DNA from: a virus
Reading direction: 5' to 3' (one strand)
UHGV virus genome: UHGV-1502588
DNA length: 35,059 nucleotides
The number at the start of each line of letters is the position of its first letter. Within the stretch, counting starts at the first letter, position 1. Below are positions 1,819 through 30,593 of the stretch, in pieces. A program made the translations under genes and the position numbers. The notes beneath the pieces were generated by a model that saw only the letters and a program-made list of their open reading frames with translations, ran no database searches and was not told the origin of the DNA.

Positions 1819-4161
1819 TTAGTTCCCGTACATTCTTAACCCTATTTCTTTAAGGGTATTATTTGCCACACCGTTCGAGTATGTAACTCGCAGGTACATT
1901 GTGTTATCAACGCCTGAGCTAGCCCCCTCTACGGGTAAATATCCTGGCGAAGATGATTGAACATCTGCGGAGACTGACCAGATACCGTCCCCGTTTGCAC
2001 GGGCGGAAACCGATGCCGATAAAAGTACTATAGGGTCTGTTCCATTCCCGTCCACAGCAGACATTGAAATTACATCAATCGTACATACCGAATCCGTAGC
2101 CGCTGCCGCAGCTCCCACACTAAAATCACCGTATGCTGTAAATCCTGAAACAGCGATAGCACCTTCAGGGATCTTATATAAAAAAGTTGCAGTAGCACCG
2201 TTGTTAAATTTCACAGAATTATTAGAATTCCATGATGAAAGAGAAGTAAACGGCGTTCGCAGTATATCCAATGGGCGCAACCACGTAAATTTACGACGCC
2301 ACCCACCAATCGTATTATTGATCAGATACCAGTATTTAATGTTTGCACTGGCTTCGCTTATAGTTATTGAATCCGGCTTGCTCTTAAACCGGTTTCCCGT
2401 TGCATTAGCATTTCTGAAAAACAACTCTTGAAGGCAGTTGGTCGCTTTGATGTTAGAAAACACCGCATACTTACCGGTTACGCCCAGCGCTTGATCGCAA
2501 TTGTTCGCCTCAACCCCATCTATAAAGTTTGGGTTATTTGCATCATTCGTTGTTGCATCGACATAAAATGTACTGACGGCCGATTTAGCATTACCCATTT
2601 TTATGTTTTTAACCAAACAACCTTTGGAGTTGTTGATTAAAATACCTTCGGAGGAAACCGTCCGCCCAAGGTTTGGGACGTTAATATCTCTTATAACGCA
2701 ATCTTCTGTGAAATTAAGCGCCCCAAAACTACCGTTACTGGTGCCCGCGGTCAGTGGTGTTTCAAGGGAGCCCTCTGATATTTCACAATTTGTCGAGTTT
2801 GCAAAGAAAAAGCCAGCGTAATAAGTTCTAACGAGATCGGCTTTAATGACTCGCATATTATGAATTTTCACGTCATAACACGAAGGTGTATTCGGCGTGA
2901 CATCGGAACCCACATTGACACCCTCAGTCCATCCATTGAACACAGGGTTCAGTATTCTGACGTGTTGCGCATTCACGCAGTTAATAGCAAAACCTCCCCA
3001 GTATGTCGGATCGGTATAATATGCTTTTATTACCGGGTTTATGAAATTCACACGCTCAGCCTGAACGAACTGCTGATTATCACGAATATACTGTTTTTGC
3101 GCCGGGTCAGTGAACGCTGCATTAACTATTGAGCCAGGATATGCACCAGACTGGAACAAACTCCATGCCAAATCAAAGTTAAACTCCCGGCTGCTTCCAA
3201 TGATAAAACCACCACGGCCTGTAGTCGCGGAACGAGGATTGATAAACTCCATGGAGCCGCCGCCCACAAACATCACTGTCGTATTCGAATGCGGGAAAAG
3301 ACAAAAATCGACACAGTATTCATCATCAATGATGACCAGCCCACCGCCGTTATCACGTACAGCGTTAAACATTTTCTGGAAACACAATGAATTATCGTGT
3401 GCAAATCCAAGGCCGCCGTTATCTGTATTACCCGCCTTTGCATGAAACATTGCTGGTGTAACCATGTTTTTAACAAGATCAAACAGGTTGCCTGATAACG
3501 GCATGCCAATTAAAGACGTACCAAAATACGCTGCTAATTTTAAAGCGAGATCTGCAGTTTGCGTTTGACCTGCGATAGCAACAGGATCCCCAAAACTATT
3601 AAACCCTAACAGCATCTGCTCGCGAACTTCTACTGGGGGAACCACCCCTACCATCTGCTCAGGAACTCTCAGCACTCTGTTAAGATTCGTTTTTACAGTC
3701 TGACTTACATATTTTTTTGTTGCTGCGTCCTGGTCATTGACAGGGTCAGCAAGGTTTTCGATTCGGTAGCCTTTGGCGTTGAATGGCCCCCCAAAAAAAG
3801 GACGGGTAAGAGCAAACCCAAGATCAATAAACGCGCGCTGGATAGCCATCCAGATACGGTCGAAATCCTTATTGACGGTATCCGCCAGGAGGTCGCCGTT
3901 ATCCTGGTAATCAGTAAGCCGGTATGTCGGTACCACACGTTCGAGCATGACAACCGCACCATTCGCCGGCGGCGTCAGAAACGTAATATCTCCGCCGTCT
4001 TTGTTACCAACGCCGGATACGGTATAGCCGCTGGCAACAACGGAACCATTGATACTTACTTCTAAATCACTGGCGCTGATGATGTAGAATTCGTAAGTAA
4101 ATACGGTTGTCTGTCCGTTGGCCGTATAGATGTTGTAAGGAATTTGGTTAGGTACCGACAT
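1819..4161 (-). CDS. Tail fiber/tailspike: T7 gp17-like N-terminal adaptor domain plus right-handed beta-helix (pectate-lyase-like) capsule depolymerase domain
   Basis: The N-terminal 150 aa (TTVFTYEFYIISASDLEVSINGSVV...DNGDLLADTVNKDFDRIW) follows the T7 tail-fiber N-domain pattern. The remaining 600 aa are Asn/Gly/Ser/Thr-rich with beta-helix repeats. Start chosen at MSVPNQIPYN (GGAG RBS), 18 nt after the terminase stop. Confidence 0.8.
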   Translation of the reverse strand: MSVPNQIPYNIYTANGQTTVFTYEFYIISASDLEVSINGSVVASGYTVSGVGNKDGGDITFLTPPANGAVVMLERVVPTYRLTDYQDNGDLLADTVNKDFDRIWMAIQRAFIDLGFALTRPFFGGPFNAKGYRIENLADPVNDQDAATKKYVSQTVKTNLNRVLRVPEQMVGVVPPVEVREQMLLGFNSFGDPVAIAGQTQTADLALKLAAYFGTSLIGMPLSGNLFDLVKNMVTPAMFHAKAGNTDNGGLGFAHDNSLCFQKMFNAVRDNGGGLVIIDDEYCVDFCLFPHSNTTVMFVGGGSMEFINPRSATTGRGGFIIGSSREFNFDLAWSLFQSGAYPGSIVNAAFTDPAQKQYIRDNQQFVQAERVNFINPVIKAYYTDPTYWGGFAINCVNAQHVRILNPVFNGWTEGVNVGSDVTPNTPSCYDVKIHNMRVIKADLVRTYYAGFFFANSTNCEISEGSLETPLTAGTSNGSFGALNFTEDCVIRDINVPNLGRTVSSEGILINNSKGCLVKNIKMGNAKSAVSTFYVDATTNDANNPNFIDGVEANNCDQALGVTGKYAVFSNIKATNCLQELFFRNANATGNRFKSKPDSITISEASANIKYWYLINNTIGGWRRKFTWLRPLDILRTPFTSLSSWNSNNSVKFNNGATATFLYKIPEGAIAVSGFTAYGDFSVGAAAAATDSVCTIDVISMSAVDGNGTDPIVLLSASVSARANGDGIWSVSADVQSSSPGYLPVEGASSGVDNTMYLRVTYSNGVANNTLKEIGLRMYGN

Positions 4162-6214: not shown

Positions 6215-6736
6215 ATGAAAAAACTCATCCCATTATTGCTAATTTTTCCCTTTACTGCCTCTGCCTCCACAGATTTAATTGAGGATTCAGGATATATCGT
6301 CCCAATATCAGGCCCAGGAATACAAATTACTAACCCGTACACTGACTATAAGGTCATTAGCGGTATCGATAACGGTAAAAAAATTGTACTAAATGTGTCA
6401 GTATTAAACCTACGTTCCTACAAGGAGAATGCAGACCTAAGCGAATCTAATAAAAATTATGCGGAAGGAAGTAAAACTGTATTCAGTTACGGCGATAACG
6501 CTTACACAAAGGATTTTATAAAATTCTCCTCGGAAGCAGCTATAAATTCGACAAAAGAAGACCTAAAAAAATTATATTGTACGCCTGATGGTATTTACCC
6601 TATGTCCTCACAGGAGAGACTATTCTACGAAGCACGGAAAGAACATAAGACAATAATGCTCAATTACTACAGTGATTCAGGAAAAACCCTCATATTTGGG
6701 TTTGGGGTTTCTCCAGAATCATGTAAATCGAAATAG
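6215..6736 (+). CDS. Moron: secreted/periplasmic protein of unknown function, AT-rich, on the opposite strand to the virion operon
   Basis: N-terminus MKKLIPLLLIFPFTASAST is a classical Sec signal peptide with an AxA site. RBS AAGGAAC. The GC content is clearly lower than its neighbours. Its stop TAG directly abuts the stop (CTA) of the convergent internal virion protein gene. Confidence 0.7.
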   Translation: MKKLIPLLLIFPFTASASTDLIEDSGYIVPISGPGIQITNPYTDYKVISGIDNGKKIVLNVSVLNLRSYKENADLSESNKNYAEGSKTVFSYGDNAYTKDFIKFSSEAAINSTKEDLKKLYCTPDGIYPMSSQERLFYEARKEHKTIMLNYYSDSGKTLIFGFGVSPESCKSK

Positions 6737-9631: not shown

Positions 9632-12345
9632 TATTCATTGCTCCATGAAAAGTAGTTTTTAACCCGGTTCATACGGTCATCGTGCAAACGCTGATATTGT
9701 TCATCGAGCGCACGGTGTTTTTCCTTAAAGCCTCGAATATCTTTCCCGTGTGATATTTCCTCTTCGCCTTGCTGTTCCCGCTCCTGCTGCATTTTTTTAT
9801 ACGGCTCCCAGTCTTCCAGCGACGGCTTCCAGCGCAAAGGACGGCCAAATTTATCGTTATACAGCTGAACCTTCGGAATCCCATTCTCATCTTTAGAGCG
9901 TATAACTATTGAGTACATCCCATCCCGAGGGGTCATTACATCCGGGGTTATTTCCAGTTCTCCACCGATACGCGATTCTGGGGTACTTGATGTAATAACA
10001 GGCGCTGAGCCTGAGGTAATTCCTAGTTGGGTCGGACTGGTTTCAATTATTTCTCCACGGTCGCCATAAGTCAGACGCTCTTTTTCTTCTTTCCACTGAG
10101 CAGCCTGCCACCCTGAGGGGCCATAGTTATAAAGCGCTTCAGGCGCATATTTCATAAGCTGGGCGCTGCCATTTACATCGCTAAGACTCCAGGTGCGCGC
10201 GATCTGGGTATTGGTCATCTTTTTGGCAATATCAGCATTACCACCTGAATTGCGATAATTAATGTCATAAAGTGACTGGTAGTCATTACGGAATTTTACA
10301 GTATCAGGATTCTGGTCATCCGCGGCGGGGCCGCCAAAGCTGTACCACGGTTTCATGCTGCTGACTGCGGAATCCATTGCGCTATCACGCTCTTTTCTAT
10401 ATTCCTTCGTGCTCTGCGTAGAAGACAATTGCGATTTCAGGGCGTCAGTCTGGTTGTAGGTCACGTTCTGCGCCTGTTTCACCGCTTCGTCTGACGCCAT
10501 ACCGGAGTCGGTAAGCTGTTTAACGGTCAGGTAAAAGCTTTGCATATCCTTTGGCATATCGCCCACAGAGGCTGGATCTGTTTCGTACAGAGCGTTAAAT
10601 AAGGTCGAGCCCTGCTTCACCACATCGGGACTGCTGGAGCGGGCGATCGCATTCAGTTGTGATGTAACTTGCGATGGGATAATGCCCGTCTGGTTAACTT
10701 GCTGCACGATAGCGTCGTGAGTGGTGGCGTCGTTAATGCGGAAGTTAAGCGCCGATGGCGTATTGTCCGCCGCCTTCTGCATGGATTTGTTGCTCGGGTC
10801 GAGTTTCTCGCCGGAGATCAGCGCGTCGTTAAAGCGGGCGGAATCACGCTGCGCCTGAATATTGGCGTTGCTCTTCTGCACCAGCGCACTAAGTTTGCCA
10901 TACGCATCGAGTTTCAGTGCGTAATCCGGGTCGTTTGCCTGCGGCTTCACTTTCGCCAGTTCGGCCTGCTGTTCTGCCGGGGTGACGTACTGGATAGCCT
11001 GGAAGGTTCTGGCGTTATCGATCGCGATATCCAGCTGCTTGATGATAGCCTGCCCTTGTTCGCCATATCCTCGCATTATTGTATCGGCGTTGAGCATAGC
11101 CTCTGGTACTTCGCCATTATATAACTGCGCAAAATTGTTATTGAGAATCGGGTCAATCTGCTGGCGCAGTGCCGTACGCTGCTGGCGGATCTGCGATTCG
11201 GCGATATTGTCGATTTTGTTTACTGCTACCGGGTCGAGACCAGTTTTATTTTTGTTGTAACGGGAAAGCCAACCACGCGTTTCGGCTGGCAGCTGCTTAA
11301 CGAAATCCGCCATTGAGATTTCGCCTTTGCGCGGGTCGCCAACTTTAGCGATCAGCTTATCGACGTTACCCATACCCCAGTTATATGCAGCACCGGCCAG
11401 CGTTTCAGACTGATATTTTTTACTGAGCTGCCCGGCATAATCGCGCGCCAGCTGCGCATGCTGCACAGGGTCGTCCGGGTTGTACTCCACGCCACGTTTA
11501 GACGCCAGTTCTTTCCCGGTGTCCGGCATCAACTGAAATTCACCCTGCGCGCCCGCGGGGGATGTAACAAGGCTACCATCTGCATTGCGGTGCTTGCCGC
11601 CAGATTCCACCAGGCCAACGGCGCGCATATCAAGTTCGCCGGTGCTGCTGTTGACCAGCGTAAAATCGCCATTAAGCCAGCCGGTGGGATTGGTTACTGC
11701 GTAGTTCTGCGCGCGCTGCTCAAGCGCTTTTTGGTTCGCTTCTGAGACCGCACCATCGATGCGCTCCTGTGACCAGCCGCGCGCCTGGCCATACATCTCG
11801 ATCGAGTGTTTCCGGGCGCTGCGTATTAGCCCGGCCTGCATCGGGTTATCGTAGGCACTGGCCTCCTGTTCAACTGAAGATGTCACCGTCGCGTTAAGCT
11901 GCTGGCGCTGGGCTTCCTCAGTCTGCGCACGCTCGAAACCGCTATAGGTGCTTGTCCGGCGTACCTGCCCCGCTTTCCACTGTGCATCAAAATAGTTTAA
12001 CTGGCTGGGCGGCACGCGCTTGCGCGCTTCCTCGTAATCGCCAGCGTCGGCCTTATCCATATCGGCGACCACACCGGACGATTTAAAGCCCTGACGCGTG
12101 ACCGTGGCGCCCGTCTCCGGGTTTTCCCAGCGGTCATTAGATTTAGCTTCCAGATCGGTCAGAATAGCCTGCGTGGCCGCTACGTCGGCTTTATCCTGTC
12201 GGCGCTGTTCCAGATCAGCAGCTTCGCCTAATGCCACACCCGCGCCAGAAATTGCATTGCCAATGGCGCCAACGTTGCTGACTGCCACCCGGTTTTGCTG
12301 CGCCTGCGGCGTTACATTGCCGAAATTTCCAGTTGGTATTCTCAC
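9631..12345 (-). CDS. Internal virion protein with a lytic transglycosylase (SLT) domain, T7 gp16-like function
   Basis: The central segment GEFQLMPDTGKELA...AAYNWGMGNV is SLT-like (E-x-G, LMQ/LMP and AYN motifs). 904 aa. GTG start directly after the upstream TAA, with a GGGGG SD. Confidence 0.65.
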   Translation of the reverse strand: MRIPTGNFGNVTPQAQQNRVAVSNVGAIGNAISGAGVALGEAADLEQRRQDKADVAATQAILTDLEAKSNDRWENPETGATVTRQGFKSSGVVADMDKADAGDYEEARKRVPPSQLNYFDAQWKAGQVRRTSTYSGFERAQTEEAQRQQLNATVTSSVEQEASAYDNPMQAGLIRSARKHSIEMYGQARGWSQERIDGAVSEANQKALEQRAQNYAVTNPTGWLNGDFTLVNSSTGELDMRAVGLVESGGKHRNADGSLVTSPAGAQGEFQLMPDTGKELASKRGVEYNPDDPVQHAQLARDYAGQLSKKYQSETLAGAAYNWGMGNVDKLIAKVGDPRKGEISMADFVKQLPAETRGWLSRYNKNKTGLDPVAVNKIDNIAESQIRQQRTALRQQIDPILNNNFAQLYNGEVPEAMLNADTIMRGYGEQGQAIIKQLDIAIDNARTFQAIQYVTPAEQQAELAKVKPQANDPDYALKLDAYGKLSALVQKSNANIQAQRDSARFNDALISGEKLDPSNKSMQKAADNTPSALNFRINDATTHDAIVQQVNQTGIIPSQVTSQLNAIARSSSPDVVKQGSTLFNALYETDPASVGDMPKDMQSFYLTVKQLTDSGMASDEAVKQAQNVTYNQTDALKSQLSSTQSTKEYRKERDSAMDSAVSSMKPWYSFGGPAADDQNPDTVKFRNDYQSLYDINYRNSGGNADIAKKMTNTQIARTWSLSDVNGSAQLMKYAPEALYNYGPSGWQAAQWKEEKERLTYGDRGEIIETSPTQLGITSGSAPVITSSTPESRIGGELEITPDVMTPRDGMYSIVIRSKDENGIPKVQLYNDKFGRPLRWKPSLEDWEPYKKMQQEREQQGEEEISHGKDIRGFKEKHRALDEQYQRLHDDRMNRVKNYFSWSNE

Positions 12346-21167: not shown

Positions 21168-21485
21168 TTAAATTCTGCATAAACGTAATTCCCCCACCTC
21201 AGCGGTTACCTGATTGAGTAATTCAGATTCGGTACCGTAGTTTTCTTCCCATGTTTTTTGCCCTGCATGGATAGCTACGCCGTGTCCGCCTGTTCTATGG
21301 TGTGGCGGGCAAAGCGGGAGAGTTTTTTTATGGTCGGCGCGCTGGGCGATACCCTGCCCTTTGCGGATATGGTGAACTTCTGCAGGTGTGGCGCCGTAGC
21401 CAAGATTTCTGCATACGACGCAACCCAGTGATGCAACGTCTTCCAGCCAGCGTTTATCGTCTTTGGTCATGGCGATATTTCTCAC
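21168..21485 (-). CDS. YbcO-like (DUF1364-type) putative zinc-binding nuclease
   Basis: The Cys/His pattern CVVC...HHIR...LCPPHH matches the small lambdoid nin-region YbcO family. The start overlaps the upstream stop (ATGA). Confidence 0.45.
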   Translation of the reverse strand: MRNIAMTKDDKRWLEDVASLGCVVCRNLGYGATPAEVHHIRKGQGIAQRADHKKTLPLCPPHHRTGGHGVAIHAGQKTWEENYGTESELLNQVTAEVGELRLCRI

Positions 21486-22078
21486 GCGGCATAGCTGAAT
21501 AATTGCGAAGCGGCGTTTTCTGCTGCCTGCTGTGTTGGGAAGGTGCGGAATAAAATAAAATTCCAGAGGACGTCTAATACGGATTTATACAGCTGGGAAA
21601 ATTCTACATCGTCCATTTTTGCGAACGATATGGATTTGGGTTCTTTGCGGGTAGTGCCATCAGGCATCTGGTATTCAGTATAAAAACCGGCTTCGATAGT
21701 CACCCAGGAACGGAATGCTTCAAACGATTTTACCGCGCTGATATTCCCGGCGCGTTTTTCTGCTTCATCGCGGAGATACTGATCCGCCAGTTCCTGCAAA
21801 GTATCGGCATGCCCGGCATAGTGGGCCACCAGCTGCACATAGCCGTGTACCAGTTTTTTATCGGCTGGTGACATTACACCGCCTGACGGTTGCCAGTAAT
21901 CAAAGCCCAGATTCAGGAGGGCGAAAAATTTACGATGGAATGCCGGGTTTCTTGCCTGCTTAAAATCCGCATATAAAATACCGCCCATACGGACTTTTTT
22001 TTCTAAAAATTCGCGGGCATTAGGCGTCGCCGGAATTAATACATTACCAGGTGCTTTTACAAAAGAATACTGCGCCAT
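21482..22078 (-). CDS. DUF1367-like lambdoid phage protein
   Basis: 198 aa with GGILYADFKQARNPAFHRKFFALLNLGFDYWQP. In my recollection this family pairs with YbcO-like genes in nin regions. Confidence 0.45.
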   Translation of the reverse strand: MAQYSFVKAPGNVLIPATPNAREFLEKKVRMGGILYADFKQARNPAFHRKFFALLNLGFDYWQPSGGVMSPADKKLVHGYVQLVAHYAGHADTLQELADQYLRDEAEKRAGNISAVKSFEAFRSWVTIEAGFYTEYQMPDGTTRKEPKSISFAKMDDVEFSQLYKSVLDVLWNFILFRTFPTQQAAENAASQLFSYAA

Positions 22079-22146
22079 TGGGTTCCCCTTTAGCGCAGCA
22101 ATTGCTCAGAAATACAGTGTGTTGGGTGTTCAGGCCAACATCATAA

Positions 22147-22356
22147 TTATAGCACAGACCCGTCTGGTTTTATAATGGTGTAACCAGACAATTTAGCTAA
22201 TTCAAACAAAGCGTTAAGTGTTGCGACATGCTCGTCGGGCTTTACGTCGCGGAGCTTTCTTGCCTTACCACTTTTGCATCTAATCAGGACATCGCCATCA
22301 TCGGGGAGAAGGACTCCTGCATCGTTCTTATCAACCACAACTCCTAAACCCCCCAA
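22147..22356 (-). CDS. Small ORF immediately downstream of a LexA-box promoter (candidate SOS-induced antirepressor or effector)
   Basis: The frame is open from TTG at 22356. Candidate starts are TTG or GTG (no in-frame ATG), so the exact start is uncertain. Downstream of the terminator, SOS box and -10. Confidence 0.35.
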   Translation of the reverse strand: MGGLGVVVDKNDAGVLLPDDGDVLIRCKSGKARKLRDVKPDEHVATLNALFELAKLSGYTIIKPDGSVL

Positions 22357-22362
22357 TAATTA

Positions 22363-22382
22363 TACTGTATAAATTCACAGTA
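22363..22382. promoter_or_regulatory. LexA (SOS) box TACTGTATAAATTCACAGTA overlapping a perfect -10 (TATAAT on the minus strand)
   Basis: CTGT-N8-ACAG, with near-consensus flanks TA...TA. On the minus strand the box's 3' end runs into TATAAT. Confidence 0.7.
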
Positions 22383-22470
22383 TATATACTCCCATAAGTT
22401 CTTAATCGCAAATCCTTAAGAGCACAATGTGTTAAAAAACATAGAAAAAATATCAAATATCCGATTGAAT

Positions 22471-22498
22471 TAAAAAGAAAACCGCCATTTCTGGCGGT
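22471..22498 (-). terminator. Rho-independent terminator ending the leftward early operon
   Basis: Minus strand reads ACCGCCAGAAATGGCGGTTTTCTTTTTAATT: a 7-bp stem followed by a T-run. Confidence 0.65.
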
Positions 22499-22524
22499 CT
22501 ATATACTTCTGGTATGGTTGAACG

Positions 22525-24629: not shown

Positions 24630-24772
24630 GCAGCCACCCATTCAATCAGGGAGCAGCCAGCCCATAACACAGCTAAAATAGCCAACCAGCCAATTACGTT
24701 AACTAATGCCGCGAACCAAAGCAGAGTGCGGCGGCTGTAATGCTCAATATCTCGTTTAAAAAAATTCTTCAC
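24626..24772 (-). CDS. Possible 48-aa membrane protein (GTG start), not in the ORF track
   Basis: GGGAGA SD 7 nt 5' of the GTG. One TM helix (LLWFAALVNVIGWLAILAVLWAG). The stop overlaps the MTase ATG (ATGA). Confidence 0.3.
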   Translation of the reverse strand: MKNFFKRDIEHYSRRTLLWFAALVNVIGWLAILAVLWAGCSLIEWVAA

Positions 24773-25002
24773 GTTCGTTTCTCCCGCCAAAAATTCAATC
24801 GTTCTTTGAAAAACTCCCGGTAGCTTTCCGGCGTCGCTGCAATCTGCTCTACGATGGCCTGTCGAGTAACTGTCTTCTCAAACAGCTGTCGTATGAGTGC
24901 TGAGGCGCGCATGTCGTAGTGCTCTTTGAGCTGGTACTCCTGCGGCCATTTGGCGCGATTGAGCGGTAAGCCGGGCGGCAGGTAATCTGATTGCCCGGCC
25001 AT
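24769..25002 (-). CDS. Hypothetical 77-aa protein
   Basis: Coupled ORF in the early operon. Confidence 0.4.
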   Translation of the reverse strand: MAGQSDYLPPGLPLNRAKWPQEYQLKEHYDMRASALIRQLFEKTVTRQAIVEQIAATPESYREFFKERLNFWREKRT

Positions 25003-28334: not shown

Positions 28335-28781
28335 TTAAACGCTGGTCAGGCGCTGTGTTTCTCGCATCGCTTGCAATGCCTTCGCGACTTGCTGCGGGCC
28401 GTCTCTGGCCTCGAGCAATAACGCGATAATGGCCGCCGCAAATTCGCGTATAGCGACGCAGATCAAATACTGGGTGGACATGTCCAGGCGCGCGTAGCGT
28501 TCTGCCGGCAGTGCCGCTTCCATCGCTTTAGCCAGCGTCTGGGTTTTAGTTCTGGCCGCTTTCGTCTCACCACGCAGCCAGCGAAAAATCTGTTGGCGGT
28601 TATTGTTGATGGCCCGCCAGTCTGCATTTCCGTCTGCATCTTCAATCTGGTGCAGCTTCAGCACGCCAGTGTTACCACCGAGACGAAACCACATACGGCT
28701 TATCTCGATAGCAACCAACTCCTGCCCGCTTTCAGCTGCCCAGCTAAATATCTCTCGTTTCAGTTCCTCGAGGTTCTCCAC
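28335..28781 (-). CDS. YdaT-like protein (CII-position protein of Rac-type immunity regions)
   Basis: AAESGQELVAIEI...RQQIFRWLRGETKAARTKTQTLAKA parallels E. coli YdaT AAEKGQAWVANAI...QQNIYHRWLKGETKTQREKIQKL. Confidence 0.55.
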   Translation of the reverse strand: MENLEELKREIFSWAAESGQELVAIEISRMWFRLGGNTGVLKLHQIEDADGNADWRAINNNRQQIFRWLRGETKAARTKTQTLAKAMEAALPAERYARLDMSTQYLICVAIREFAAAIIALLLEARDGPQQVAKALQAMRETQRLTSV

Positions 28782-28841: not shown

Positions 28842-29078
28842 TTAAGCTGCATCCTGTTCTGGTAGTCCATCGGTTGGCTTCCGATAAATGCTTGGGAGCA
28901 GATCGTGGGGAGTTACCTGGTAATTGGTTGCTGCTGACCATACCAATGCTGATGCAGCAGACAGAAAGCATTCCCCAGCAGCGATTCGGCTTACATAGCC
29001 TTGAGTTTTCCCAACCAGTACGGCGAACTCATGCTGACGAACACCAGATGTTTTTAAGTAGTCTTTCAGTTTCATCAT
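28842..29078 (-). CDS. Cro/YdaS-like HTH regulator (divergent from the repressor)
   Basis: HTH in QHEFAVLVGKTQGYVSRIAAGE. 78 aa. AGAGG RBS. Confidence 0.65.
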   Translation of the reverse strand: MMKLKDYLKTSGVRQHEFAVLVGKTQGYVSRIAAGECFLSAASALVWSAATNYQVTPHDLLPSIYRKPTDGLPEQDAA

Positions 29079-29100: not shown

Positions 29101-29134
29101 CATGAATATTAATAACGTTAATATTTTTCGTCAA
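29101..29134 (-). promoter_or_regulatory. PR-like leftward promoter (-35 TTGACG, 17-nt spacer, -10 TAATAT) with an overlapping repressor operator AATATTAATAA
   Basis: Sequence read directly. The same 11-mer (reverse complement TTATTAATATT) recurs at 29726 and 29761. Confidence 0.55.
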
Positions 29135-29181: not shown

Positions 29182-29637
29182 ATGAGAAAGAAAACCATTG
29201 ACGCCGTTGAACGCGAAGCAGCTAAACGCCTTCGTGAAATCTGGAACGAAAAAAAAGTAACTTTACGTCTGACTCAGGAGAAGGCAGCGGAGGTGCTTGG
29301 CTTCAGCACGCAGGCGTCAGTAAGCCATTACTTAAATGGCACTACGCCACTAAATACCGATGCCACTTTAAAATTCGCCTCACTTCTTGGAGTGAAACCA
29401 GAAGAGATTCGGCCTGATCTGGCTGAAATGATGAATTACGTTAGAAAGTCAGGTGAGTATCTAGAAGATCGATCAGGACCAGGCTGGAAGCTACTTAGCC
29501 CAGAACATGCAGAACTCATTGATTTGTATGAAAGACTTCCACAGAGCGAAAAAGAACGGCATTTATCTGATTTAAAAGAGAAAGTGGAAGGTTTTGATCG
29601 TTTATTTAGAGAGTTACTAGCCACACGAAAGCAATAA
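29182..29637 (+). CDS. CI-like prophage repressor, XRE-family HTH, without a LexA-like (S24) autocleavage domain
   Basis: HTH in LTQEKAAEVLGFSTQASVSHYLNG. 151 aa. The C-terminus lacks the S24 Ser/Lys motifs. Flanked by operator repeats. Confidence 0.75.
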   Translation: MRKKTIDAVEREAAKRLREIWNEKKVTLRLTQEKAAEVLGFSTQASVSHYLNGTTPLNTDATLKFASLLGVKPEEIRPDLAEMMNYVRKSGEYLEDRSGPGWKLLSPEHAELIDLYERLPQSEKERHLSDLKEKVEGFDRLFRELLATRKQ

Positions 29638-29659
29638 CGCCTCCCCTCAAGTGACAACG

Positions 29660-29688
29660 ATCCCAGCTTCGCGCTGGGATTTTTTTTG
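29660..29688 (+). terminator. Rho-independent terminator after the repressor gene
   Basis: ATCCCAGC-TTCGC-GCTGGGAT followed by T8. Confidence 0.75.
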
Positions 29689-29725
29689 TCTAAATTTATC
29701 AACGTCATACAAAAAATATTGTCGT

Positions 29726-29771
29726 TATTAATATTTTAATGTTGACCAATAATATTATCATTATTAATATT
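29726..29771 (+). promoter_or_regulatory. Rightward early promoter (TTGACC, 17-nt spacer, TAATAT) bracketed by two TTATTAATATT operators
   Basis: TTATTAATATTttaatgTTGACCaataatattatcatTATTAATATT. Read directly. Confidence 0.55.
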
Positions 29772-29829
29772 CACCACATCAACGACGCACTAACCACGCG
29801 GCAGTTGTTCAGAAACAGTTCTGACAGTC

Positions 29830-30215
29830 CGGAAAGACGGGCAAGAATTCTTCGGGTCGCCGACAGTACGATGACATGCGGGAAAGACCGCAACGAATGC
29901 AAATTGCTGTGTGTAGTCTTGGCCCCGGCGCCCGGGGCATTTTTTTAACACAGGAACGATTTATGCGACCCTTCAGTGAAAACTGAAGCCCTCGAGGAGA
30001 GGGGCCCCGTGAGGAAAGACCGTAGAGCCTGACCAGCTCTGACACCGGGAAAGACCGGGAGGAAAGACCAACGGGCATGACCAGCCCTGACAGCCGGGAA
30101 AGACCGGCAACCTTTAGATGGCAAAAGGCCCGCACAAGGCGGGCCAGTTACCCCGAACGGTGACCAAACCATTCGGATTTTTGCCGGGAACCACCCCGGC
30201 TAGGAAAGACCAATG
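29830..30215. repeat. Array of about 9 GGAAAGACC copies, including a tandem 46-bp duplication (30008..30103) and a stem-loop GGCCCGC-ACAA-GCGGGCC
   Basis: Visible direct repeats: GGAAAGACC-N5-GCcTGACCAGCyCTGACAsCGGGAAAGACCGG, twice in tandem. No convincing ORF. Confidence 0.6.
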
Positions 30216-30269
30216 CAGGCCAGAGCCACACACTGATCGGCTCTGAGTATACATCACCAAGGAGTCGCT

Positions 30270-30593
30270 ATGGAAGCGCTTACCATCCCCGTAACTATCT
30301 ACGTTATGGCAACAACCAATCCATATCTACCAACGTCTTATCACTCATTCACCTGTGACATGTCACAGAAATATCCTGATTCGTACGTGCTTGTTACTAC
30401 CAAAACGGTAGAGATTGCCATTCCTGCTTTAGAGCCTATCGATATTATCGGGATGCAGGTTAATGCCCTTCGCGCGAAGAAAGAGCAAATATCTGCTGAT
30501 GCCAACAAACAGTTAAGCGTTATTGAAGACCAGATCCAGCAGCTGCTATGCATCGACCACTCTCCGATTGAAGAAAGCGACGTACCGTTTTAA
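30270..30593 (+). CDS. Hypothetical 107-aa protein
   Basis: Strong RBS AAGGAGTCGCTATG. First gene of the rightward operon. Confidence 0.55.
   Translation: MEALTIPVTIYVMATTNPYLPTSYHSFTCDMSQKYPDSYVLVTTKTVEIAIPALEPIDIIGMQVNALRAKKEQISADANKQLSVIEDQIQQLLCIDHSPIEESDVPF

What the first reader, a model, noticed from the sequence alone, without database searches (positions are those of the whole stretch)
22147..22500. Near-consensus LexA box overlapping a perfect -10 in front of a small gene, combined with a non-cleavable CI-like repressor: likely SOS-controlled antirepression
TACTGTATAAATTCACAGTA (CTGT-N8-ACAG) runs directly into TATAAT on the minus strand. It sits just downstream of the terminator that ends the early-left operon and upstream of a 60-70 codon ORF. 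The CI-like repressor at 29182..29637 has an XRE HTH but no S24 peptidase domain, so induction via RecA-mediated autocleavage is unlikely. The 186/Fels-2/Gifsy paradigm uses a LexA-repressed antirepressor gene. This small ORF, or a small RNA from this promoter, is the best candidate. It could also read through into the DUF1367/YbcO/HTH genes and so couple SOS to late expression.
Basis: partly seen in the sequence, partly recalled or inferred. Interest (0 to 1): 0.6.

Follow-up and report, generated by a model that had tools for sequence, protein, structure and literature searches.

The report
SOS-controlled prophage antirepressor gene
A strong, evolutionarily conserved LexA-binding site sits on the promoter of a 63-codon gene that is a relative of the known Gifsy (GfoA) and Qin (Rem) antirepressors, so this prophage most likely wakes up after DNA damage by making a small protein that disables its non-cleavable repressor: a correct reading, but of a mechanism that is already known.

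Summary
TACTGTATAAATTCACAGTA lies at 22363-22382 and scores 24.6 bits on a LexA matrix. It is the only match in the window to the 20-nt consensus at three mismatches or fewer (0 expected). It follows an intrinsic terminator (22500-22479, minus strand) and precedes a small minus-strand ORF.

The ORF most likely starts at GTG 22338 (63 aa). It is homologous to two tested antirepressors: GfoA of Gifsy-1/3 (hhalign 96.5%, E 8e-10) and Rem of Qin (95.3%, E 2e-8). It occupies their position, directly upstream of DUF1367/irsA.

In 75 of 78 related loci (41-98% protein identity) a box of at least 17 bits precedes the gene. The CTG and ACAG half-sites never vary, while the spacer does.

The 151-aa repressor has a lambda-CI-type HTH and no S24 domain. 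Its C-terminal 47 residues are 40% identical to DicA, the target of Rem.

One correction: the conserved promoter is TTGCGA-17-TATATA, just upstream of the box.

Verdict: a LexA-repressed antirepressor module of the Gifsy type, and a new member of a known kind. No binding or induction was tested here.

The parts
22479..22500 (-). Intrinsic terminator ending the cro-cII-replication-methylase operon
   Evidence: 9-bp stem (5 G-C pairs), 4-nt loop and T-run. Lemire et al. 2011 (PMC3121763) describe terminator-like palindromes before the LexA box in all three Gifsy prophages. One is also visible in Gifsy-2 and in relatives L067-L071.
22406..22411 (-). Conserved -35 hexamer TTGCGA of the antirepressor promoter (inferred)
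   Evidence: In the alignment of upstream regions, TTG(C/A)NN, 16-18 nt, then TA(T/A)A(T/A)A abuts the box in 27 of 43 distinct upstream sequences. This is a consensus match plus conservation; no transcription start was mapped.
22383..22388 (-). Conserved -10 hexamer TATATA, immediately upstream of the LexA box (inferred)
   Evidence: It lies 17 nt from the -35. The predicted start (about 22376) falls inside the LexA box, so bound LexA would block RNA polymerase.
22363..22382 (.). LexA (SOS) box TACTGTATAAATTCACAGTA
   Evidence: 24.6 bits and unique in the window. Across 27 distinct box sequences from relatives, positions 3-5 (CTG) and 15-18 (ACAG) never vary, while positions 7-11 vary freely.
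22359..22364 (-).
   Evidence: Present. It lacks a usable -35 (ATATAT/TATATA) and is absent from most relatives, for example ACAGTAtagtta, ACAGTAatttgc and ACAGTAttttgt.
22341..22345 (-). Shine-Dalgarno AGGAG, only 2 nt before the GTG start
   Evidence: The short spacing and the GTG start are kept in relatives. Gifsy gftA also starts with GUG (PMC3121763), and the GfoA-like genes recovered here start with TTG or GTG.
22147..22338 (-). Antirepressor gene, 63 aa, GfoA/Rem family (PHROG 340)
   Evidence: Family matches: phrog_340 at 1.4e-16 and a weak match to anti-repressor phrog_4792. Most homologues are exactly 63 aa with an aligned start. Homology: hhalign to GfoA-like 96.5% and to Rem 95.3%. 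Coding signature. AlphaFold2 model with pLDDT 87.9: helix, beta-hairpin, helix.
22079..22154 (-). Conserved spacer between the antirepressor gene and DUF1367, of unknown function
   Evidence: It contains TGnTATAAT (22154-22146), a 5-bp hairpin (22139-22121) with loop CCTGAACAC, and a second CTGAGCAA (22109-22102). The spacer is about 72 nt in most loci (71-88 nt overall), with the sequences listed. The hairpin has two pairs with compensatory changes and is also present in Gifsy-2, Qin and Rac. No T-run follows it, so it is not an intrinsic terminator.
21482..22078 (-). DUF1367 (IrsA/STM1020-like) gene, probably co-transcribed
   Evidence: Pfam DUF1367 at 6e-84. 55% identical to Gifsy-2 STM1020. 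It follows the small gene in every related locus that extends far enough downstream.
21168..21485 (-). DUF968 / RecA-dependent-nuclease-like (P1 Ref-like) HNH gene, overlapping the DUF1367 stop
   Evidence: Pfam RecA_dep_nuc at 2.1e-14 and DUF968 at 3.6e-7.
29182..29637 (+). Prophage repressor, 151 aa: lambda-CI-type HTH plus DicA-type C-terminal module, no S24 peptidase
   Evidence: Pfam HTH_3/HTH_31 only. Residues 2-83 match lambda CI's N-terminal domain, PDB 1lmb, at 8e-7. Residues 105-151 are 40% identical to DicA 85-131, E 7e-12. Weak similarity to Gifsy-2 GtgR includes the same C-terminal motif.
28842..29078 (-). Cro-like HTH gene, divergent from the repressor, with the CII/YdaT-like gene (28335-28781) downstream
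   Evidence: ORFs and translation (HTH assigned by eye; this ORF was not scanned against any family library). YdaT_toxin Pfam and phrog_163 'CII-like'. A palindrome AATATTAATAACGTTAATATT at 29106-29126, read from the sequence, is a candidate operator.

Best explanation
This is a Gifsy-type SOS induction module.

In the lysogen, host LexA binds the box at 22363-22382. The box begins right after the -10 of a conserved sigma-70 promoter (TTGCGA-17-TATATA) and covers the predicted transcription start, so the promoter is shut. The terminator just upstream insulates it from the early operon.

DNA damage activates RecA, LexA cleaves itself, and the promoter fires. A 63-aa GfoA/Rem-family antirepressor is then made. 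Its translation is probably weak, because it uses a GTG start with a Shine-Dalgarno only 2 nt upstream.

The antirepressor binds the prophage's short, non-cleavable repressor (29182-29637) and takes it off its operators. The likely contact is the conserved DicA-type C-terminal module. Release of the repressor derepresses the cro-cII-replication operon and starts lytic growth.

The same transcript probably continues into DUF1367 and the Ref-like nuclease gene.

Shown here: the box, its conservation, the homologies, the gene order, and the absence of S24.

Inferred: LexA binding, promoter use, the protein-protein contact and its site, and read-through.
For: Box:
- Strength and uniqueness.
- 75 of 78 related loci keep a box of at least 17 bits upstream of the gene, against 6 such sites in about 470,000 background positions. 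Half-sites are invariant and the spacer is variable.
- A conserved -35/-10 abuts the box.

Protein:
- The family profile matches a GfoA-like protein at prob 96.5%, E 7.8e-10. That protein was recovered with the published gfoA primer. It sits between dinI and DUF1367 and lies behind a 26-bit LexA box.
- Direct BLASTP of the window protein against it gives E 3e-5.
- The family profile matches the Rem family at prob 95.3%, E 2e-8.
- GfoA and Rem are experimentally shown antirepressors (PMC3121763; PMC10448788).
- The same domain forms the C-terminus of longer proteins whose N-termini are KilA-N, P22_AR_N or Rha domains. Of these, P22_AR_N is the P22 antirepressor's N-terminal domain.

Synteny: same order as gftA and rem.

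Repressor:
- No S24 domain, and a DicA-type C-terminus.
- In 59 related loci, 57 repressors are 128-154 aa. They fall into at least six N-terminal classes that share the motif LPESEKERH...LFEELL.
- One antirepressor class (at least 90% identical) pairs with four to six repressor classes.

Coding signature of the ORF.
Against: - Nothing here shows LexA binding, SOS induction or a repressor-antirepressor contact.
- Homology to Gifsy-2 GftA is not established: prob 34-63%.
- The Pfam Rem model (PF27490) is not in the local library. Precomputed hits on close homologues are only 'faint'.
- The conserved -10 (TATATA) and -35 (TTGCGA) are imperfect, and the promoter scan did not call them.
- E. coli rem genes have no LexA box, so LexA control is not universal in the family.
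- One relative (L089) pairs the module with a 241-aa S24 repressor. The module is therefore not strictly tied to non-cleavable repressors.
- The free pairing of antirepressor and repressor classes could reflect mosaic recombination rather than a shared docking site.
Confidence: 0.85

Rival explanations
1. The LexA-controlled promoter mainly serves the downstream genes: DUF1367, the Ref-like RecA-dependent nuclease, and perhaps the HTH and packaging genes. Under this reading it is an SOS-induced recombination or late module, and the small protein is accessory or does something other than antirepression.
For: The small gene is followed by DUF1367 at a near-constant distance (about 72 nt, up to 88 nt) in every locus that extends far enough. 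No intrinsic terminator lies between them. The next gene belongs to the RecA-dependent nuclease family, which would make sense under SOS conditions.
Against: The small protein is homologous to two tested antirepressors. In Gifsy-2, gftA alone suffices for induction (PMC3121763). A conserved -10-like hexamer in the spacer suggests DUF1367 may have its own promoter. This rival is compatible with the main explanation rather than exclusive of it.
Confidence: 0.1
2. The small protein is SOS-induced but acts on a host target, for example RecA in the manner of DinI, cell division, or a defence system. The prophage repressor is inactivated in some other way.
For: Gifsy prophages place a dinI homologue at this promoter. 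The small protein has no solved structural relative, so its function rests on sequence homology alone.
Against: There is no DinI match in the small protein. There is homology to GfoA and Rem. The domain recurs as the C-terminus of longer proteins with P22_AR_N (P22 antirepressor N-terminal), KilA-N or Rha N-termini. The repressor carries the DicA-type module that Rem's target has.
Confidence: 0.04
3. The box is a chance or decayed palindrome with no regulatory role.
For: AT-rich intergenic DNA can contain palindromes. The window has two other CTGT-N8-ACAG matches that are not LexA-like.
Against: Shuffles give 0 expected matches at three mismatches or fewer. The box is conserved in 75 of 78 loci with invariant half-sites and a variable spacer, including E. 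coli phage 705R4, whose protein is only 41% identical.
Confidence: 0.01

Closest known systems
Gifsy-1/Gifsy-3 GfoA/GfhA antirepressors with GfoR/GfhR repressors (Salmonella; Lemire, Figueroa-Bossi and Bossi 2011, PMC3121763)
   Same: - A LexA box on a promoter placed after a terminator, downstream of the replication genes and outside the immunity region.
- A small antirepressor with a non-ATG start, directly upstream of DUF1367/irsA.
- A short repressor without a cleavage domain.
- Detectable sequence homology.
- One antirepressor serving heteroimmune repressors, which is reported for GfoA and suggested here.
   Different: - No dinI gene lies between the box and the antirepressor; the box ends 24 nt before the start codon.
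- The protein is 63 aa rather than 82 aa and lacks about 20 N-terminal residues.
- Only about 28% identity.
- The repressor's N-terminal domain is of the lambda-CI type.
- The homologues found come mainly from Klebsiella and Raoultella.
Rem antirepressor and DicA repressor of the Qin prophage (E. coli K-12; Ragunathan et al. 2023, PMC10448788); Pfam PF27490 'Rem'
   Same: - Homologous core: beta-hairpin, helix and the AG(Y/F) motif.
- Same position upstream of irsA/ydfU-type genes.
- The repressor's C-terminal 47 residues are 40% identical to DicA.
   Different: - E. coli rem genes have no LexA box within 400 nt; the best score is 1.5 bits. Their inducing signal is unknown according to the paper.
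- Rem is 83 aa.
- In E. coli, hok or relBE modules lie upstream of rem.
Gifsy-2 GftA antirepressor with GtgR/GftR repressor
   Same: Identical locus architecture, 55% identical DUF1367 neighbour, GUG start, and weak repressor similarity that includes the C-terminal motif.
   Different: Sequence homology of the antirepressors is not established: hhalign 34-63% and no BLASTP hit.
Coliphage 186 Tum, N15 AntC, P22 Ant (LexA- or otherwise controlled antirepressors; cited in PMC3121763)
   Same: Same logic: an antirepressor made on induction binds and inactivates a repressor that is not cleaved. Tum and AntC are LexA-controlled.
   Different: Different proteins and sizes. Tum is 146 aa with a DinI-like half, while the window protein has no DinI match. 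Some longer proteins with a P22_AR_N (P22 antirepressor N-terminal), KilA-N or Rha N-terminus carry the window protein's domain only as a C-terminal module.

Membership tests
Gammaproteobacterial LexA (SOS) box | 16-mer core CTGT-N8-ACAG within a 20-nt palindrome close to TACTGTATATATATACAGTA | tested here: met
   17 of 20 matches to the consensus, and 24.6 bits against a training median of 20.5. The matrix was built from E. coli boxes recalled from memory.
Gammaproteobacterial LexA (SOS) box | Overlaps a promoter so that bound LexA blocks transcription | tested here: inconclusive
   The box abuts a conserved -10 (TATATA) and covers the predicted start. The hexamers are imperfect, the scan did not call the promoter, and no start site was mapped.
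Gammaproteobacterial LexA (SOS) box | Bound by LexA; gene induced by DNA damage | not testable with these tools
   Needs EMSA or ChIP and a reporter with mitomycin C.
Gifsy-type LexA-controlled small antirepressor module (GfoA/GfhA) | Sequence homology to GfoA | tested here: met
   hhalign of the family profile against the GfoA-like protein: prob 96.5%, E 7.8e-10, 56 columns. BLASTP gives E 3e-5. The GfoA-like sequence was recovered with the published gfoA primer and is not taken from strain ATCC14028 itself.
Gifsy-type LexA-controlled small antirepressor module (GfoA/GfhA) | LexA box preceded by a terminator, downstream of the replication genes and outside the immunity region | tested here: met
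   The Gifsy-2 comparison is, and the description is in PMC3121763.
Gifsy-type LexA-controlled small antirepressor module (GfoA/GfhA) | Cognate repressor is short and lacks the RecA-stimulated self-cleavage (S24) domain | tested here: met
   151 aa with HTH only. 57 of 59 relatives have repressors of 128-154 aa.
Gifsy-type LexA-controlled small antirepressor module (GfoA/GfhA) | Antirepressor binds the repressor and removes it from DNA; its expression alone induces the prophage | not testable with these tools
   Needs co-purification, EMSA, and arabinose-driven expression in a lysogen.
Pfam PF27490 Rem | Match to the family model at its gathering score | not testable with these tools
   The model is absent from the local Pfam copy. 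Precomputed hits on homologues with 67-73% identity are marked 'faint'.
Pfam PF27490 Rem | Homology to E. coli Rem proteins | tested here: met
   Profile-profile comparison: prob 95.3%, E 2e-8, over 43 columns. Pairwise BLASTP finds nothing, so this is a distant sister group rather than Rem proper.
Pfam PF27490 Rem | Partner repressor of the DicA type | tested here: met
   C-terminal module 40% identical to DicA, E 7e-12. The N-terminal DNA-binding domain is of the lambda-CI type instead. Many relatives carry repressors that are DicA-like over their full length, at 45-69% identity.
Gifsy-2 GftA family | Sequence homology to GftA | tested here: inconclusive
   hhalign prob 62.6% against the single sequence and 34.1% against the GftA family profile. 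No BLASTP hit.
186 Tum / DinI-fusion antirepressors | DinI-like domain | tested here: not met
   No DinI match in the small protein, even at E up to 10.

The most novel reading that the evidence does not exclude
The antirepressor may dock on the roughly 47-residue C-terminal module (LL.LF..LPESEKERH...LFEELL). This module is shared by at least six heteroimmune classes of DicA-type repressors in Klebsiella and Enterobacteriaceae prophages. If so, one SOS-induced 63-aa protein could wake every co-resident prophage of this class, whatever its immunity.

A corollary concerns E. coli Rem, whose inducing signal is unknown. Rem would be a member of the same lineage that lost its ancestral LexA promoter when hok or relBE modules were inserted upstream.

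A further unexplored point is the conserved -10-like hexamer, hairpin and CTGAACA repeat between the antirepressor gene and DUF1367. It is present from Klebsiella phages to Gifsy-2 and Qin, and could be an undescribed regulatory element of the irsA operon.
Probability: 0.4. Interest if true: 0.5.

Novelty: new member of a known kind. Interest (0 to 1): 0.35.

Why it matters
- It assigns a function to a family that databases leave unnamed. PHROG 340 is 'unknown function', and the homologues found, mainly from Klebsiella and Raoultella, are named 'hypothetical protein' where they carry a name at all.
- It predicts that these prophages are induced through LexA and an antirepressor rather than through repressor cleavage. 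That bears on induction by DNA-damaging antibiotics and on cross-induction among co-resident prophages.
- It links the two experimentally studied small antirepressors, GfoA and Rem, through an intermediate family.
- It suggests SOS as the ancestral signal for the Rem lineage.
- It names a candidate docking module on DicA-type repressors that can be tested directly.
- The regulatory principle itself has been known since 2011.

Tried and rejected
Searches that gave nothing useful:
- Local Pfam gave no family for the small protein, even at E up to 10.
- PDB sequence search with the family profile gave only chance-level hits.
- Foldseek against viral models gave nothing at E of 0.001 or less. The fold therefore adds no functional evidence.
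- Megablast of the locus against complete E. coli genomes found nothing.
- Rfam found no family at gathering score in the whole window, and only two sub-threshold matches near the terminator.
- The search for related loci with the broad alignment failed because it had no conserved stretch. The narrow alignment worked.

Comparisons that did not establish a link:
- Homology to Gifsy-2 GftA could not be established.
- The Rem profile against GftA or the GfoA-like protein was not significant. The window's family is the bridge between them.

Readings rejected:
- A small-RNA product was rejected on the coding signature and protein conservation.
- RecA-mediated cleavage of the repressor was rejected because there is no S24 domain.
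- The second CTGT-N8-ACAG at 24870 (14 bits) lies inside a 77-aa gene. The third, at 30353, scores below 5.1 bits, outside the window's 12 best sites. Both were set aside as chance.
- The weak DinI match at the N-terminus of the repressor (E 0.0097, below the Pfam cut-off) was treated as noise.

Full report
**Observation**

The 20-mer TACTGTATAAATTCACAGTA is at 22363-22382. On the minus strand it reads TACTGTGAATTTATACAGTA and runs into TATAAT at 22364-22359.

A terminator-like hairpin with a T-run lies upstream at 22500-22479 on the minus strand. A minus-strand ORF follows, running 22147-22356 from TTG, with an in-frame GTG at 22338.

The site is the only match in 35 kb to the 20-nt LexA consensus at three mismatches or fewer. 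None is expected in shuffles.

On a matrix that I built from E. coli SOS boxes recalled from memory, the site scores 24.6 bits, against a training median of 20.5. The next best site in the window scores 14.0 and lies inside a 77-aa gene.

**The small gene**

Most homologues are exactly 63 aa and start at the position of GTG 22338. The related phage record BUCT708 annotates a 63-aa gene there. I therefore take 22147-22338 as the gene.

It evolves as a protein. Across 50 distinct alleles, the variable columns by codon position are 39/26/53, and synonymous codon differences outnumber non-synonymous ones.

The local Pfam copy has no match. PHROGs places it in phrog_340 ('unknown function', 1.4e-16), with a weak match to the C-terminus of an anti-repressor family.

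A profile search of 1.84 billion representatives found only 60 clusters. Nearly all are 55-100 aa. A few longer proteins carry the domain at the C-terminus behind KilA-N, P22_AR_N or Rha domains.

**Link to known antirepressors**

Precomputed annotation on close homologues shows faint hits to PF27490, named 'Rem'. Rem of the Qin prophage relieves DicA repression when expressed (PMC10448788).

- A 42-sequence profile of the window's family matches a 20-sequence Rem profile with probability 95.3%, E 2e-8.
- I used the published gfoA forward primer (PMC3121763) to recover the Gifsy-1/3-type gene from Salmonella prophage contigs.
- That gene gives an 82-aa, TTG-initiated protein. It lies between dinI and DUF1367, behind a 26-bit LexA box.
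- The family profile matches it with probability 96.5%, E 7.8e-10, over 56 columns.
- The window protein alone gives BLASTP E 3e-5 against it.
- Homology to Gifsy-2 GftA stays unproven.

**Synteny**

In Gifsy-2 the order is: terminator, LexA box, dinI, gftA, STM1020. STM1020 is a DUF1367 protein 55% identical to the window's.

In an E. coli Rac-type record the order is rem ('prophage antirepressor'), irsA (DUF1367), ybcO, Q.

The window has terminator, LexA box, small gene, DUF1367, and a DUF968/Ref-like HNH gene. The small gene therefore sits at the gftA/gfoA/rem position.

**Conservation of the box**

I examined 78 loci that encode a relative of the small protein, at 41-98% identity. They come from IMG/VR, genomes and phage records.

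- 75 of them have a box of at least 17 bits within 300 nt upstream.
- The box is usually 14-24 nt before the start codon. In the more distant relatives it is 44-54 nt before it, and in one subgroup 169 nt.
- Of the three loci without a box, one (L065) is cut off at the contig end, so its upstream region is missing.
- Elsewhere in those loci, such sites occur 6 times in about 470,000 positions.
- Among 27 distinct box sequences, CTG and ACAG never vary, while positions 7-11 vary freely. This is the pattern expected for selection on LexA binding.
- E. coli phage vB_EcoM-705R4 has TACTGTATAAATATACAGGT in front of a homologue that is only 41% identical.

By contrast, E. coli rem genes in Qin, mEp460_ev081, PPompW and Rac 442/2 have no box; the best score is 1.5 bits. 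That agrees with the published statement that Rem's inducing signal is unknown.

**Promoter**

Aligning the upstream regions by the box shows a conserved TTGCGA, a 17-nt spacer and TATA(T/A)A abutting the box. In the window these are 22411-22406 and 22388-22383.

The box therefore spans roughly -6 to +14 relative to the predicted start. It may act as a second -10 here.

Either way, LexA would occlude the promoter. This is inference; no start site is known.

The GTG start, with a Shine-Dalgarno only 2 nt upstream, is conserved. It parallels the GUG start reported for gftA and the TTG or GTG starts of the GfoA-like genes recovered here. This points to deliberately weak translation.

**The repressor**

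The 151-aa protein at 29182-29637 is divergent from a Cro-like gene and a CII/YdaT-like gene.

- Residues 2-83 match the N-terminal domain of lambda CI at 8e-7.
- There is no S24 domain.
- Residues 105-151 are 40% identical (77% similar) to DicA 85-131, E 7e-12. They also resemble the C-terminus of Gifsy-2 GtgR.

In 59 related loci with the immunity region in reach, 57 repressors are 128-154 aa. One more (L133) is cut off at the locus edge and yields only a 30-aa fragment. They fall into at least six N-terminal classes, either the window's type or DicA-like at 45-69% identity. All share the C-terminal motif LL.LF..LPESEKERH...LFEELL.

Only one repressor (L089) is a 241-aa S24 protein.

The last 50 residues are more conserved than the rest: a mean of 52% against 35% between classes. 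A single antirepressor class (at least 90% identical) is found with four to six repressor classes.

This fits an antirepressor that recognises the shared C-terminal module, as GfoA acts on both GfoR and GfhR. Mosaic recombination alone could give the same pattern.

**Mechanism, with status**

| Step | Status |
|---|---|
| Strong, conserved LexA box on a conserved promoter-like sequence | Shown |
| GfoA/Rem-family gene directly behind the box | Shown |
| Non-cleavable repressor with a DicA-type C-terminus | Shown |
| LexA represses the promoter | Inferred |
| SOS releases the promoter | Inferred |
| The 63-aa protein binds the repressor, probably at residues 105-151, and removes it from its operators | Inferred |
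| The transcript continues into DUF1367 and the Ref-like nuclease gene | Inferred |

No intrinsic terminator lies between the small gene and DUF1367.

**Structure**

**Novelty**

The regulatory design was described for the Gifsy prophages in 2011, and the protein family includes GfoA and Rem. This is a new member of a known kind.

The additions are modest:
- a functional assignment for an unnamed family found mainly in Klebsiella and Raoultella;
- a bridge between GfoA and Rem;
- a hint that SOS control is ancestral for the Rem lineage;
- a candidate docking module on DicA-type repressors.

The conserved spacer element between the antirepressor gene and DUF1367 remains unexplained.

Noticed in passing
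window 22079-22154 (minus strand); also L002 about 11705-11740, L009 about 6610-6650 (minus), L003 2345-2385, L154 1762-1827: The spacer between the antirepressor gene and DUF1367 is about 72 nt in most of roughly 70 loci. It holds a -10-like hexamer (TGnTATAAT in the window, overlapping the stop codon) 6-7 nt before a 5-bp hairpin with a conserved loop CCUGAACAC, and then a second CTGA(A/G)CAA. Two stem pairs show compensatory changes. The hexamer and hairpin persist in Gifsy-2, Qin, Rac and 705R4 even where the coding sequence differs. This could be a separate promoter with a 5' stem-loop for the irsA operon, or a protein-binding site. There is no Rfam match.
   Followed up: partly
window 21168-21485 (minus strand): The gene after DUF1367 matches the RecA-dependent nuclease family (P1 Ref-like; PF16786) and DUF968. 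It lies in the same probable SOS-driven transcription unit. That would place a RecA-filament-dependent nuclease under LexA control.
   Followed up: no
L089 (IMGVR_UViG_2767802184_000002), repressor at about 3254-3980 on the minus strand of the locus: One relative carries a 241-aa repressor with a Peptidase_S24 domain, yet keeps the LexA-box antirepressor gene (95% identical). This mosaic would have two routes to SOS induction, or an antirepressor without a cognate target.
   Followed up: partly
L067-L071 (for example L067 2812-3000): In this subgroup (about 51-54% identical proteins) the LexA box, followed by TATAAT, lies 169 nt upstream of the ATG. This leaves a long leader of unknown role. 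A terminator still precedes the box.
   Followed up: no
window 24868-24887: A second, weak LexA-like site AACTGTCTTCTCAAACAGCT scores 14 bits, within the range of the weakest known boxes. It lies inside the 77-aa gene 24769-25002 (minus strand) and is probably chance.
   Followed up: partly
window 30353-30368: A perfect 16-bp palindrome CTGTGACATGTCACAG lies inside ORF 30270-30593 (phrog_2479, unknown function). It fits CTGT-N8-ACAG but scores poorly as a LexA box.
   Followed up: no
window 29106-29126: The palindrome AATATTAATAACGTTAATATT lies in the 103-nt gap between the cro-like gene and the repressor gene. It is a candidate operator.
   Followed up: no
window 29640-30270: About 630 nt next to the repressor gene have no convincing gene. 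The only long ORF there (29809-30135, minus strand, 108 aa) matches no Pfam or PHROG family.
   Followed up: no
L001 (OM816834.1, Stenotrophomonas phage vB_SmeS_BUCT708) and OM816835.1: Two phages recorded as infecting Stenotrophomonas maltophilia share 86-89% nucleotide identity with this region, whose other relatives are mostly from Klebsiella and Raoultella. This includes the LexA-box antirepressor module. The host label looks odd. In those phages an ATPase/RloB pair on the opposite strand sits upstream of the module.
   Followed up: no
L004-L007, 7500-8500 of each locus: Relatives carry anti-defence genes (Tad2-like, Acb2/Tad1 hairpin family) just downstream of the HTH gene that follows the DUF968 gene. 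The equivalent region of the window was not examined.
   Followed up: no
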